20,834 nucleotides of DNA, taken from the IMG/VR virus record IMGVR_UViG_3300030310_000016; one strand, written 5' to 3'. A program made the position numbers and the translations under genes. This document shows positions 791 to 1,765 of the stretch, piece after piece. How positions within the stretch are numbered: the first letter of the stretch is position 1; each line of letters opens with the position of its first letter. The notes under the pieces were generated by a model. The model made no database searches, was not told the DNA's origin, and was given only the letters and a program-made list of their open reading frames with translations. The DNA is from a virus (lineage: Duplodnaviria > Heunggongvirae > Uroviricota > Caudoviricetes).

Positions 791-1186
791 CTAACCTCGC
801 ATGTCAAAGCCAGATTTCTGAAAATCTCTGTAGACTTCCGGATTGTTGAAGGCCGGAAATTTGGCTTTATGAGCTGCGGACTTTATCGCTTCGCAATAGG
901 CTTTATCACCGTTACTGGTAGATATTTTTAACGCCGTGCCATCCTGAGAGAATTCCATATGCAACCTGCATTTTTTCCCTTTCCAGTTATGCGGCTCATC
1001 AAGTTTGGCATTAATTGCAGCTCTGATTCCCCGCGCTTGCGCCCCCCATTCATCCTGATCATCCCAGCGTCCTGAACTGCAACTACCTGTAGCAGTAGTT
1101 TTGTGGCAATCTGAAGGGTGTAAAGGTGTGCATCCCGCAACAAAACCGACCCAAAAAGTCAACATAACGATTTTCTTTAATCCCAC
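791..1186 (-). CDS. outer-membrane-type lipoprotein with TolA C-terminal (domain III)-like domain
   Basis: GTG start at 1184..1186 with GAGGAG 6 nt upstream. Signal peptide MGLKKIVMLTFWVGFVAGC with lipobox VAGC and Thr at +2. The C-terminal 60 residues (GKKCRLHMEFSQDGTALKISTSNGDKAYCEAIKSAAHKAKFPAFNNPEVYRDFQKSGFDMR) align by eye with the recalled TolA domain III motif GK.C.L......G.L........D..LC.A.......A.IP.PP...VY.VF.....DFKP. Confidence 0.7.
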   Translation of the reverse strand: MGLKKIVMLTFWVGFVAGCTPLHPSDCHKTTATGSCSSGRWDDQDEWGAQARGIRAAINAKLDEPHNWKGKKCRLHMEFSQDGTALKISTSNGDKAYCEAIKSAAHKAKFPAFNNPEVYRDFQKSGFDMRG

Positions 1187-1336
1187 TTCTTGCTCCTCAA
1201 TCCATTAAAATCTCAGCAATAGTAGTTGTTACGTCCGCCACTGGCTCAGAGCTGACTATCCGCTAAATTTAGCTCAGTGCCGTAGCTGTGTCAGAACAAA
1301 CCTAAGCCGAAACCGTTTATTACAAAACAATAAATA

Positions 1337-1765
1337 TCAGGGTTTAAAATCCAGCACCCCATTTTGAAATACTTTATATACTTCCGGCGAAGGGGGGGCA
1401 GGTATATCAGCATTCTTTATCGCATTCATCGCTTCACGACATAAATCGAGGTCTCCACTTTCTCTTTTAACCTCCAGTAGAAGGCCATTCGGGGCCATAT
1501 GCATTCTCAGTGTACACTCTTTTCCTGAATACTTACTCGCATCCCCGAACTGTTTTTCGATGGCGCTCTTGATTTGATGGGCATACAGACGGATATCCTC
1601 ACTAACATCAGAAGTACGTTCAGATGAACTCACATACTGTGTCTCTATTGCTTTATCGGAGTAATATGATGTACGGTCATGATAATTTGTCGATACAGCA
1701 TCAGTGCACCCGATAATAATCCCACTAATAATCAACGTAAGAATTGATGCGCTACGAAAACCCAT
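1337..1765 (-). CDS. outer-membrane-type lipoprotein with TolA C-terminal (domain III)-like domain, paralog of 791..1186
   Basis: ATG at 1763..1765 with GAGGA upstream. Signal peptide with lipobox IIGC and Thr at +2. The C-terminus YAHQIKSAIEKQFGDASKYSGKECTLRMHMAPNGLLLEVKRESGDLDLCREAMNAIKNADIPAPPSPEVYKVFQNGVLDFKP closely matches the recalled E. coli TolA C-terminus (YAGQIKSAIESKFYDASSYAGKTCTLRIKLAPDGMLLDIK...PPSQAVYEVFKNAPLDFKP). Confidence 0.75.
   Translation of the reverse strand: MGFRSASILTLIISGIIIGCTDAVSTNYHDRTSYYSDKAIETQYVSSSERTSDVSEDIRLYAHQIKSAIEKQFGDASKYSGKECTLRMHMAPNGLLLEVKRESGDLDLCREAMNAIKNADIPAPPSPEVYKVFQNGVLDFKP

What the first reader, a model, noticed from the sequence alone, without database searches (positions are those of the whole stretch)
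791..1765. Tandem pair of divergent lipoproteins carrying TolA domain-III-like modules in the Q-to-holin moron slot
Seen in sequence: two adjacent same-strand genes each encode a lipobox signal peptide (VAGC and IIGC, Thr at +2, so Lol-sorted to the outer membrane by the +2 rule) and a C-terminal domain following the pattern GK-C-L...G-L...GD-LC-EA...A-IPAPP-PEVY-VFQ...DFKP. The second copy is especially close to the chromosomal TolA C-terminus as I recall it. Each has its own start signal, and a hairpin terminator at 644..669 separates them from the holin. Established knowledge: TolA domain III is the periplasmic hub bound by filamentous-phage g3p and by the translocation domains of group A colicins, and it contacts Pal, TolB and CpoB; the Q-to-S interval is the classic late-expressed moron slot. 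Inference: these are TolA-III mimics that could act as decoys against Tol-dependent colicins or phages, or could modulate Tol-Pal during lysis or lysogeny. I do not know of a characterised prophage module of this kind.
Basis: partly seen in the sequence, partly recalled or inferred. Interest (0 to 1): 0.8.

Follow-up and report, generated by a model that had tools for sequence, protein, structure and literature searches.

The report
Prophage lipoproteins copying TolA's C-terminal domain
A Rac-like E. coli prophage carries, between its late-gene activator and its lysis genes, two small predicted outer-membrane lipoproteins that are stand-alone copies of the TolA domain which colicins and filamentous phages must grab to enter cells, so they most likely act as decoys, but this has not been tested.

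Summary
Two minus-strand genes, B (1337-1765, 142 aa) and A (791-1186, 131 aa), each encode a lipobox signal peptide, a disordered linker and one TolA domain III. Pfam PF06519 gives 2.4e-23 and 1.3e-14. AlphaFold models superpose on E. coli TolAIII at 1.1-1.8 Å. B is 60% identical to TolA 336-421 and A is 34% identical. They lie between a Q-like gene and a P21-type holin, with a promoter-like site upstream of B and a strong terminator after A.

The pair is not an obligate unit. B variants occupy the same slot alone. A belongs to a family under strong purifying selection (dN/dS about 0.1) that occurs singly on chromosomes of many enterobacterial genera and on pO157-type plasmids. Stand-alone TolAIII lipoproteins are diverse. 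On Klebsiella bacteriocin plasmids one sits beside a secreted TonB C-terminal domain.

The best explanation is non-energised TolAIII decoys at the outer membrane that intercept colicin translocation domains, phage g3p or the TolB N-terminus. This is inference, supported by laboratory precedent for periplasmic TolAIII. I found no published characterisation. RefSeq's "TolA" label for B is a misnomer.

The parts
1337..1765 (-). Gene B. 142-aa predicted outer-membrane lipoprotein: signal peptide and lipobox IIGC (Cys20, Thr at +2), a disordered linker of about 30 residues, and a TolA domain III (residues ~51-142) ending in VLDFKP.
   Evidence: ORF. Pfam PF06519 2.4e-23. 60% identity to K-12 TolA 336-421. 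phmmer against PDB TolAIII 5e-28. AF2 model with Foldseek hits 3qdp/2x9a/1tol, rmsd 1.3-1.8 Å, TM(target) 0.83-0.92.
791..1186 (-). Gene A. 131-aa predicted outer-membrane lipoprotein: GTG start, lipobox VAGC (Cys19, Thr at +2), a conserved Cys-containing linker (CTPLHPSDCHKTTATGSCSSGRWDDQDEWG), and a diverged TolA domain III (residues ~45-131) ending in FDMRG.
   Evidence: ORF. Pfam PF06519 1.3e-14. 34% identity to TolA. AF2 core pLDDT >90 with Foldseek 3qdp rmsd 1.1 Å, TM(target) 0.89. Family dN/dS about 0.10.
1795..1824 (-). Sigma-70 promoter-like site (TTGAGC, 18 nt, TATAAT) about 30 nt upstream of the gene B start. It is a candidate promoter for transcription of B, and of A, independent of the late promoter.
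   Evidence: Consensus scan, 10/12 matches. Retained with one change in the -10 hexamer in the 91%-identical B variant loci. Function not shown.
1266..1294 (-). Weak promoter-like site (CTGACA, 17 nt, TAAATT) in the 150-nt B-A spacer. No terminator-like hairpin was found in this spacer, so B and A may be co-transcribed.
   Evidence: 9/12 matches; no terminator reported between 1186 and 1337.
640..665 (-). Intrinsic terminator (AGCTCGC-TACG-GCGAGCT followed by TTTTTATATTG), 126 nt after the gene A stop and about 45 nt before the holin ORF. It would end any non-antiterminated transcript before the lysis genes.
   Evidence: -10.7 kcal/mol. Not found downstream of A homologues in other genera, so it belongs to the phage slot rather than to the A module.
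324..596 (-). Holin (P21 holin S family). Downstream boundary of the slot.
   Evidence: Pfam PF04971 4.5e-35. Annotated essD in the identical SE11 locus.
2809..3351 (-). Q-like late-gene antiterminator candidate (DUF1133, with a weak Phage_antitermQ match). Upstream boundary of the slot.
   Evidence: Pfam PF06576 2.5e-107 and PF06530 8.6e-06.
2363..2439 (-). Promoter-like site (2439..2410) followed by a terminator-like hairpin (2382..2363). Candidate late promoter and tR' from which Q-modified transcription would read through B, A and the lysis genes.
   Evidence: consensus matches only.

Best explanation
Genes B and A are two independent accessory ('moron'-type) genes. Each encodes a stand-alone TolA domain III tethered to the inner face of the outer membrane by a lipid anchor and a flexible linker of about 20-30 residues. 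They lack TolA's transmembrane helix and long helical domain II, so they cannot be energised by TolQR.

Proposed mechanism (inferred): they act as non-productive competitors for ligands that normally dock on TolA domain III by beta-strand addition. These ligands are the translocation domains of group A colicins and related bacteriocins, the N1 domain of filamentous-phage g3p and, at high dose, the N-terminus of TolB.

In a lysogen, low expression from their own promoter(s), stopped at the terminator before the holin, would make the cell tolerant to Tol-dependent bacteriocins and filamentous phages. B is a near-exact mimic: its beta3 LDFKP is identical to TolA, and most of the ColA-site lysines are kept. 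A is an older, diverged paralogue with a different surface, so the two probably have different ligand spectra. During lytic growth, Q-dependent read-through would overproduce both, which may additionally loosen the outer membrane.

Shown: domain identity, fold, lipobox, gene context, distribution and purifying selection. Inferred: outer-membrane localisation, expression pattern, binding partners and phenotype.
For: 1. Identity and fold.
2. The edge strand beta3 (TolA L417-K420) is where TolB, ColN-T and g3p-N1 bind by strand addition, and D418P or K420P abolish binding (PMC4339652). B keeps LDFKP exactly and all B variants keep LDFK[PL]. A keeps F-D-M-R. Among 79 short stand-alone relatives, 48 end in a beta3-like motif, most reading LDFK/LDFR.
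3. ColA site (TolA L375-P380 with K368, K379, K396; PMC3365938): B has LLEVKR with H, K, K. A has ALKIST with E, S, H. The two copies therefore differ in surface.
4. Laboratory precedent: a signal-sequence-TolAIII fusion is used to make E. coli leak periplasmic proteins (Wan & Baneyx 1998, as used and cited in PMC6195910). From my own knowledge, Levengood-Freyermuth et al. 1993 reported colicin tolerance and leakiness on periplasmic TolAIII expression; that paper was not readable here.
5. Comparative context: on Klebsiella ColRNAI plasmids that encode a colicin-like bacteriocin, immunity and lysis operon, a TolA_C lipoprotein is followed, with overlapping stop and start codons, by a secreted TonB_C-domain protein. 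That is one stand-alone domain for each of the two bacteriocin import routes. Single copies also sit on IncF plasmids, some with MPF_F conjugative transfer genes.
6. Function is maintained: family A has dN/dS of about 0.10 at dS of about 1.1 across 29 sequences from more than 12 genera. The pair is ≥99% identical in about 780 of 5426 complete E. coli genomes and travels with at least two Q types and two endolysin types.
7. Moron-like layout: promoter-like site before B, no terminator between B and A, strong terminator before the holin.
8. Measured affinities favour selective trapping of invaders: ColN-T and g3p-N1 bind TolAIII at about 1 µM, against about 40 µM for TolB (PMC4339652).
Against: - No experiment or expression data were available, and no paper on these proteins was found in 10 full-text searches.
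- Promoter calls are consensus matches only (11 found against 7.2 ± 2.8 expected in shuffles).
- Outer-membrane sorting rests on the +2 rule alone.
- Family A is often chromosomal, outside any visible prophage or plasmid, in other genera. This fits a general envelope role as well as it fits a defensive one.
- A has lost most ColA-contact residues, and its highly conserved Cys-containing linker is unexplained by a simple decoy model.
- PADLOC defence models give no hit.
- A decoy that also titrates TolB should carry an envelope cost.
- Lambdoid prophages gain nothing obvious from excluding F-pilus-dependent filamentous phages.
Confidence: 0.45

Rival explanations
1. Late-expressed Tol-Pal antagonists that help lysis or vesiculation. 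Transcribed mainly from the Q-dependent late promoter as the first late genes, the two TolAIII lipoproteins titrate the TolB N-terminus (and possibly Pal or CpoB) away from TolA. This produces a transient tol phenotype (weakened, leaky, vesiculating outer membrane) that aids the spanin step or progeny release.
For: They occupy the position immediately upstream of holin, endolysin and spanin and downstream of Q and a candidate pR'/tR'. A, B and the same holin co-occur in all 80 IMG/VR loci examined. Overproduced periplasmic TolAIII causes leakage (PMC6195910). Blocking TolA-TolB by beta3 proline mutations gives a full tol phenotype (PMC4339652).
Against: Family A is conserved under purifying selection on plasmids and on chromosomes with no lysis genes nearby. 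Klebsiella plasmid homologues pair with a TonB domain, which has no role in lysis. The strong terminator between A and the holin, together with a promoter-like site before B, suggests expression uncoupled from lysis. Most lambdoid phages lyse well without such genes.
Confidence: 0.2
2. Envelope proteins with a partner other than the known TolA ligands. This applies especially to family A. The TolAIII/TonB-CTD fold is a general beta-strand-augmentation module. A, with its invariant Cys-containing linker, may bind a different periplasmic or outer-membrane protein, such as a TonB-box-like or TolA-box-like peptide of a transporter, Pal, CpoB, or an incoming toxin from another delivery system. It could serve housekeeping or stress functions, and the prophage copy would be a hitchhiking accessory gene.
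For: A is a singleton in varied chromosomal neighbourhoods in Leclercia, Enterobacter, Klebsiella, Serratia, Rouxiella and others. The linker is as constrained as the domain (dN/dS 0.115 against 0.10). The ColA-contact residues are replaced. B also scores on TonB_2, 5.6e-05.
Against: The C-terminal edge strand and the disulfide pair typical of TolAIII are kept. The closest structures are all TolAIII, not TonB. Recurrent carriage on plasmids and prophages points to a transferable benefit rather than housekeeping.
Confidence: 0.25
3. Non-functional remnants. The genes are fragments of tolA captured by illegitimate recombination, carried passively and mis-annotated.
For: RefSeq labels B 'tolA'. 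2 of 31 family A loci are pseudogenes.
Against: Both have complete signal peptides with lipoboxes and ribosome-binding sites. dN/dS is about 0.1. B variants at 91%, 74% and 66% identity all keep the lipobox, the cysteines and the C-terminus. At least 56 distinct 50%-identity clusters of short TolAIII proteins carry a lipobox-like motif.
Confidence: 0.03

Closest known systems
TolA domain III of the Tol-Pal system (E. coli TolA residues ~329-421; PDB 3QDP, 3QDR, 1TOL, 2X9A, 1S62)
   Same: Same Pfam family and same fold (three helices, three-stranded sheet). Same disulfide-forming cysteine pair (TolA C363/C388 = B C84/C109 = A C73/C98). Same C-terminal edge strand. B is 60% identical and A 34% identical.
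   Different: No N-terminal transmembrane helix (TolQR-binding domain I), no helical domain II, and not in the tol-pal operon. Instead there is a lipoprotein signal peptide and a short disordered linker. The domain would hang from the outer membrane rather than reach out from the inner membrane, and it cannot transmit proton-motive force.
Laboratory constructs exporting TolAIII to the periplasm (Levengood-Freyermuth, Click & Webster 1993; Wan & Baneyx 1998, plasmid pTA3Y)
   Same: A free TolA domain III in the periplasm, uncoupled from TolQR. The reported effects are outer-membrane leakiness (as used in PMC6195910) and, from my recollection of the 1993 paper, tolerance to group A colicins and reduced Ff infection.
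   Different: The constructs are soluble, overexpressed and artificial. The genes here are natural, lipid-anchored, diverged (A) and carried by mobile elements. Their expression level and phenotype are unknown.
Outer-membrane exclusion lipoproteins of phages: Cor (phi80, N15, HK022 group) and Llp (T5), which inactivate FhuA
   Same: Small phage-encoded outer-membrane lipoproteins proposed or shown to close an import route used by competing phages and colicins. The Llp-FhuA complex is described in bioRxiv 10.64898/2026.03.26.714494 (listed).
   Different: No sequence or fold relationship. Cor and Llp block an outer-membrane receptor. The proteins here would mimic the periplasmic energy-transducer domain and trap the invader after it has crossed the outer membrane.
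Filamentous-phage g3p produced in infected cells, which occupies TolA and renders cells tolerant to colicins and to superinfection (Boeke, Model & Zinder 1982; my own knowledge)
   Same: Exclusion obtained by saturating the TolAIII-ligand interaction.
   Different: The reverse logic. g3p blocks the host's TolA. Here a surplus of TolAIII would block the invader's ligand.
Uncharacterised plasmid TolA_C lipoproteins: Klebsiella ColRNAI bacteriocin plasmids (WP_001237044 with a TonB_C protein), Klebsiella/Raoultella IncF plasmids, and pO157-type plasmids (WP_001453090)
   Same: Same architecture: lipobox, linker and TolAIII. The pO157-type protein is an orthologue of A (about 88% identity).
   Different: 33-39% identical to B. 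Different replicons. The Klebsiella one is coupled to a secreted TonB C-terminal domain. None has a published function that I could find.

Membership tests
TolA C-terminal domain (Pfam PF06519, TolAIII fold) | Sequence match above the curated threshold | tested here: met
   B 82.6 bits and A 54.6 bits against a cutoff of 25. phmmer against PDB TolAIII: 5e-28 and 5e-9.
TolA C-terminal domain (Pfam PF06519, TolAIII fold) | Alpha/beta fold with a three-stranded sheet, superposable on solved TolAIII | tested here: met
   AF2 models (core pLDDT 80-96) hit 3qdp, 3qdr, 2x9a and 1tol at E 2e-10 to 5e-07, rmsd 1.1-2.0 Å, TM(target) 0.83-0.92. TonB C-terminal domains score far lower.
TolA C-terminal domain (Pfam PF06519, TolAIII fold) | Conserved cysteine pair (E. 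coli C363-C388) and C-terminal beta3 edge strand | tested here: met
   Cysteines are invariant in both families. B ends in LDFKP and A in FDMRG. 68 of 79 short relatives keep GKxC...C. Disulfide formation itself was not tested.
Bona fide TolA (Tol-Pal system protein; NCBIfam NF007065 / TIGR02794) | Full-length match above the equivalog cutoff | tested here: not met
   NF007065: 107.8 and 53.7 bits against a cutoff of 213. Only model positions ~293-387 are matched. TIGR02794: B scores 75.6 against a cutoff of 59.45, but only over positions 265-362. A scores 47.2, below the cutoff.
Bona fide TolA (Tol-Pal system protein; NCBIfam NF007065 / TIGR02794) | N-terminal inner-membrane anchor that binds TolQR, long helical domain II, and location in the tolQRA-tolB-pal operon | tested here: not met
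   The proteins are 131 and 142 aa with a lipoprotein signal peptide. Their neighbours are Q, an sRNA and a holin. The real tolA operon is elsewhere.
Bacterial lipoproteins sorted to the outer membrane | Signal peptide with a positive n-region, a hydrophobic core and a lipobox [LVI][ASTVI][GAS]C | tested here: met
   A: KK, IVMLTFWVGFV, VAGC. B: R, ILTLIISGIII, IIGC. The lipobox is conserved in both families.
Bacterial lipoproteins sorted to the outer membrane | No Asp at +2 (Lol avoidance), actual lipidation and actual localisation | not testable with these tools
   The +2 residue is Thr in both (Ala in most A homologues), which predicts outer-membrane sorting. Lipidation and localisation need experiments.
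Phage morons (autonomously expressed accessory genes inserted between phage operon genes) | Dispensable insert between conserved phage genes, present in some relatives and absent or replaced in others | tested here: met
   Depending on the prophage, the same Q-to-holin slot carries B and A, B alone, B with a sialate esterase, DUF826 and so on.
Phage morons (autonomously expressed accessory genes inserted between phage operon genes) | Own promoter and terminator, with expression from the repressed prophage | tested here: inconclusive
   A promoter-like site at 1824..1795 and a terminator at 665..648 were found. These are consensus matches, and no transcript data were available.
Known anti-phage defence systems (PADLOC-DB 2.0) | Match to any defence-system protein model | tested here: not met
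   No hits for either protein at E ≤ 1.
PHROG 5772 (phage protein family of unknown function) | Profile match | tested here: met
   A 6.7e-65 and B 1.6e-62, full length.

The most novel reading that the evidence does not exclude
Prophages, colicin-type plasmids, F-type plasmids and some chromosomes of Enterobacterales carry a large, uncharacterised class of 'energy-transducer decoys'. These are stand-alone TolA domain III lipoproteins and, on some plasmids, secreted TonB C-terminal domains. They would give immunity-protein-independent, broad tolerance to Tol- and Ton-dependent bacteriocins and to filamentous phages by trapping the invaders' TolA or TonB boxes at the outer membrane. The tandem A and B pair in this prophage would be a two-specificity version.
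Probability: 0.35. Interest if true: 0.75.

Novelty: new variant of a known kind. Interest (0 to 1): 0.6.

Why it matters
Group A colicins, related klebicins and cloacins, and filamentous phages all depend on docking to TolA domain III. Bacteriocins and engineered colicin-like proteins are being developed as narrow-spectrum antibacterials.

If mobile elements spread ready-made TolAIII (and TonB-CTD) decoys, this would be a transferable, broad tolerance mechanism distinct from cognate immunity proteins and from receptor loss. The pair is present in about 14% of complete E. coli genomes. A-type genes are in 23% of them, including pO157-type plasmids. Related genes are on small plasmids seen here in clinical Klebsiella isolates.

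It would also supply natural dominant-negative probes of the TolA-TolB interaction. It would explain a recurrent, unannotated occupant of the Q-to-lysis slot that in other phages holds Shiga toxin.

If the proteins instead weaken Tol-Pal late in infection, they would be a new accessory to phage lysis or vesicle release.

In either case RefSeq's naming of B as 'cell envelope integrity protein TolA' is misleading, and it could confuse automated counts of tolA.

Tried and rejected
1. Obligate two-gene system: rejected. B variants (91% and 66% identical) sit in the same slot without A. A is single on plasmids and on chromosomes of other genera.
2. Terminator as part of a portable A module: rejected. 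No comparable hairpin with a T-run occurs at that position after A homologues elsewhere.
3. A TolB-box-like motif in A's linker (SSGRWDDQDEWG against the colicin DGSGW motif, recalled from memory): not supported. W47 aligns with TolA Y340 at the start of helix 1, and AF2 starts the helix at residues 41-45. No multimer prediction was possible, so the conserved linker remains unexplained.
4. Defence-system membership: no PADLOC hit.
5. Literature: ten full-text searches found nothing on phage- or plasmid-borne TolAIII lipoproteins. Two Klebsiella transposon studies mention only chromosomal tolA. The key 1993 paper (PMC196117) and the colicin review PMC1847374 are not held.
6. IMG/VR scan for diversity: all 80 loci returned were 99% identical, so it was useful only for flank mosaicism.
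7. Recent capture of B from E. coli tolA: not supported. The best full-length match is only 60% identical.
8. tRNA genes in the Q-S slot: none.
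Full report
**What is there.** The window is part of a Rac-like lambdoid prophage. It holds an integrase, RecE-type exonuclease VIII, a cI/Cro-type HTH protein, an IstB/DnaC-like replication protein, DUF1367-DUF1364-DUF1133 (Q-like), and then a P21-type holin and the 5' end of an endolysin gene. 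The same locus in E. coli SE11 continues with rrrD, a spanin-type lysis protein and trkG.

Two ORFs lie on the minus strand between the Q-like gene (2809..3351) and the holin (324..596). I call them B (1337..1765, 142 aa, transcribed first) and A (791..1186, 131 aa). Both start with a typical lipoprotein signal peptide:
- B: R4, core ILTLIISGIII, lipobox IIGC.
- A: K4 K5, core IVMLTFWVGFV, lipobox VAGC.

Both have Thr at +2 and a Shine-Dalgarno sequence (GAGG at 1773..1770 for B; GAGGAG at 1198..1193, 6 nt before a GTG, for A). RefSeq starts A at Met8. The GTG start fits the ribosome site and the n-region better, and homologues in other genera extend even further upstream.

**Identity.** Both proteins match Pfam TolA_C (PF06519), B at 2.4e-23 and A at 1.3e-14. 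They match only the last ~90 positions of the NCBIfam full-length TolA models, far below the NF007065 cutoff. Both belong to PHROG 5772, function unknown.
- B is 60% identical, without gaps, to E. coli K-12 TolA residues 336-421.
- A is 34% identical to residues 344-420.
- A and B are 29% identical to each other.

AlphaFold2 models have a confident C-terminal domain (A core pLDDT 90-96, B 80-90) and a disordered stretch of about 20-30 residues after the lipidated Cys. Foldseek against the PDB returns E. coli TolAIII structures first (3qdp, 3qdr, 2x9a, 1tol; rmsd 1.1-2.0 Å, TM(target) 0.83-0.92). Vibrio and Pseudomonas TolAIII come next, and TonB C-terminal domains only weakly.

**What they are not.** They are not TolA. 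There is no inner-membrane anchor, no domain II and no tol-pal context; the real operon was fetched for comparison. [quoted passage not shown]

**Surfaces.** Ridley and Lakey showed that TolB, ColN-T and g3p-N1 all bind TolAIII by beta-strand addition to the C-terminal strand beta3. Single proline substitutions at D418 or K420 abolish ColN and g3p binding and give a full tol phenotype. ColN-T and g3p-N1 bind at about 1 µM against about 40 µM for TolB (PMC4339652).
- B ends in VLDFKP, against PLDFKP in TolA. Every B variant keeps LDFK[PL].
- A ends in FDMRG.

The ColA site lies on the opposite face: L375-P380 plus K368, K379 and K396 (PMC3365938).
- B has LLEVKR with His, Lys, Lys at the three lysine positions.
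- A has ALKIST with Glu, Ser, His.

So B is a close mimic of both known faces. A keeps the fold, the disulfide pair and a beta-prone C-terminus, but has a different surface. This residue mapping is my own, made from the ungapped alignments.

**Regulatory layout.** On the minus strand, in order:
- A promoter-like site with a terminator-like hairpin follows Q (2439..2410 and 2382..2363). This is a candidate pR'/tR'.
- An Rfam STnc100 sRNA match lies at 2062..1876, 86.6 bits against a gathering score of 47. This prophage sRNA family is related to PasD (bioRxiv 10.64898/2026.05.13.724894).
- A 10/12 sigma-70-like site (TTGAGC-18-TATAAT, 1824..1795) lies about 30 nt before B.
- No terminator lies between B and A.
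- A strong intrinsic terminator (665..648) lies before the holin.

The B promoter-like site is retained with one -10 change in 91%-identical B loci and replaced by other sequence in 66% loci. About 40-70 nt upstream of A is conserved across genera. The terminator is not found after A homologues elsewhere, so it belongs to the phage slot.

This is the classical moron layout. However, promoter calls are only slightly enriched over shuffles (11 against 7.2 ± 2.8), and I had no transcript data.

**Distribution.**
- The 1.5-kb pair region is 100% identical in many E. coli chromosomes. 770 of 5426 complete genomes carry at least 80% of it.
- B-type genes are in 888 genomes, nearly all chromosomal. 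A-type genes are in 1269 genomes, with 825 chromosomal and 525 plasmid places. The plasmid places are about 88% identical and sit on pO157-type plasmids.
- The pair is in phage mEp460_ev081 with a different Q and endolysin.
- All 80 IMG/VR loci with a 99% A also have B and the same holin, but they show at least two Q types and two endolysin types.
- B variants of 91% and 66% identity occupy the same slot without A.
- In a one-genome-per-species scan, A homologues (65-89% identical) are singletons in varied chromosomal neighbourhoods in Citrobacter, Enterobacter, Klebsiella, Raoultella, Leclercia, Lelliottia, Kluyvera, Pantoea, Serratia, Rouxiella and others. Neighbours include hydrogenase genes, LysR/LysE genes and umuDC. 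Two are pseudogenes.
- Family A is under strong purifying selection. dN/dS is 0.10 for the domain and 0.115 for the Cys-containing linker, at dS of about 1.1.

So the 'pair' is a juxtaposition of two separately mobile genes.

**A wider class.** tblastn finds TolA_C genes on about 1300 plasmids. The ones I opened are all lipoproteins:
- A Klebsiella ColRNAI plasmid encoding a colicin-like tRNase bacteriocin, immunity and lysis operon has a 123-aa TolA_C lipoprotein (LLTAC|K). Its stop overlaps the start of a 121-aa secreted TonB_C protein. A second such plasmid has the same pair.
- Klebsiella and Raoultella IncF plasmids carry single copies.

A profile search of 1.84 billion cluster representatives gave 554 hits at E ≤ 1e-3. 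Of the best 149, 79 are 100-170 aa long. 56 of those have a lipobox-like motif, and a few have a plain signal peptide. 68 keep the GKxC...C pair, and most end in ...LDFK/R-x. B's closest full-length relative is still E. coli TolA at 60%, so it is not a recent copy.

**Mechanism.** The best-supported reading is that these are non-energised TolAIII domains held just under the outer membrane. There they compete with real TolA for ligands that dock by strand addition. Four points support it, and all of them are inference:
- The published affinities (about 1 µM for ColN-T and g3p-N1 against about 40 µM for TolB) suggest that moderate amounts would trap invaders preferentially over TolB.
- Artificial periplasmic TolAIII is known to perturb the envelope (PMC6195910). 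From my recollection of Levengood-Freyermuth 1993, it also confers colicin tolerance.
- The TolA_C plus TonB_C pairing on bacteriocin plasmids looks like one decoy for each import route.
- The genes ride on elements that benefit from host survival.

I put this at about 0.45. The rivals are:
- Late-expressed Tol-Pal antagonists that aid lysis or vesiculation (0.2). Position favours this. The non-phage homologues and the terminator before the holin count against it.
- A different, unknown partner, especially for A with its constrained linker and frequent chromosomal residence (0.25).
- Dead fragments (0.03), contradicted by selection and intact signals.

**Comparison and novelty.** In fold and family these are TolAIII domains. 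In function the nearest things are laboratory TolAIII export constructs, the FhuA-blocking lipoproteins Cor and Llp, and g3p-mediated exclusion by filamentous phages. I found no paper that characterises a phage- or plasmid-borne TolAIII lipoprotein. The ten searches are limited to open-access text. PADLOC has no model for them.

I rate this a new variant of a known kind: an exclusion or tolerance lipoprotein built from a mimic of the host's energy-transducer domain. It is common, cleanly testable and of moderate-to-high interest. The domain identity itself is already recorded by annotation pipelines.

Noticed in passing
window 1876..2062 (minus strand): Strong Rfam match to the prophage sRNA family STnc100 (RF02076), 86.6 bits against a gathering score of 47. 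It lies directly upstream of the gene B promoter-like site. A 2026 preprint relates STnc100 to the PasD sRNAs of the Q-to-holin region.
   Followed up: partly
window 2363..2439 (minus strand): Promoter-like site (AAGACA-18-TATAAT) followed within about 30 nt by a G+C-rich hairpin and a T-run, roughly 370 nt downstream of the Q-like gene. This is a candidate late promoter with tR'. Weak sub-threshold isrK-like Rfam hits lie at 2647..2786.
   Followed up: no
L004 4908..5641 (Klebsiella pneumoniae plasmid NZ_CP028788.2); also L126 4408..4994: On ColRNAI plasmids encoding a colicin-like tRNase bacteriocin, a TolA_C lipoprotein gene overlaps by 4 nt the start of a gene for a signal-peptide-bearing TonB_C domain. 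This looks like one stand-alone domain for each of the two bacteriocin import systems. In L126 the TonB gene is annotated shorter (219 nt).
   Followed up: partly
L005 4815..5246 (E. coli O157:H7 plasmid p611-1, pO157 type): An orthologue of gene A (about 88% identical) sits alone between the psiB-psiA-hok region and toxB. About 525 plasmid places of this type occur in complete E. coli genomes.
   Followed up: partly
window 1078..1129 (residues 20-36 of protein A): The linker after the lipidated Cys (TPLHPSDCHKTTATGSC) contains two extra cysteines. It is almost invariant across more than 12 genera (dN/dS 0.115). Its role is unexplained by a simple tether.
   Followed up: partly
L110 about 5001..5390 (Enterobacter quasiroggenkampii) and L114 about 5001..5351 (Leclercia adecarboxylata NCTC13032): The family A genes are inactivated by in-frame stop codons in these two genomes (2 of 31 loci).
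   Followed up: no
window 5727..6898 (minus strand): IS3-family transposase ORFs (rve and HTH_21 domains) are inserted in the prophage between the ninG-like region and the replication genes. The same IS is annotated in E. coli SE11.
   Followed up: no
window 7321..8736 (minus strand): A 471-aa ORF with no Pfam match at E ≤ 1e-3. The 262-aa ORF at 11052..11840 also has none.
   Followed up: no
L006 4229..4777 (Klebsiella plasmid pCuAs): A thioredoxin-fold (Thioredoxin_2/DsbA-like) protein is encoded immediately upstream of the plasmid TolA_C lipoprotein. This may be relevant to the conserved disulfide of the domain.
   Followed up: no
L120 5786..7732; L118-L121 2636..4539: In prophages with the 66% B variant, the same slot also holds a TfpB-family protein and an AraC-type regulator upstream of B. 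In L120, a sialate O-acetylesterase-type gene (DUF1737/SASA) lies between B and the holin. This shows how crowded and mosaic the slot is.
   Followed up: no
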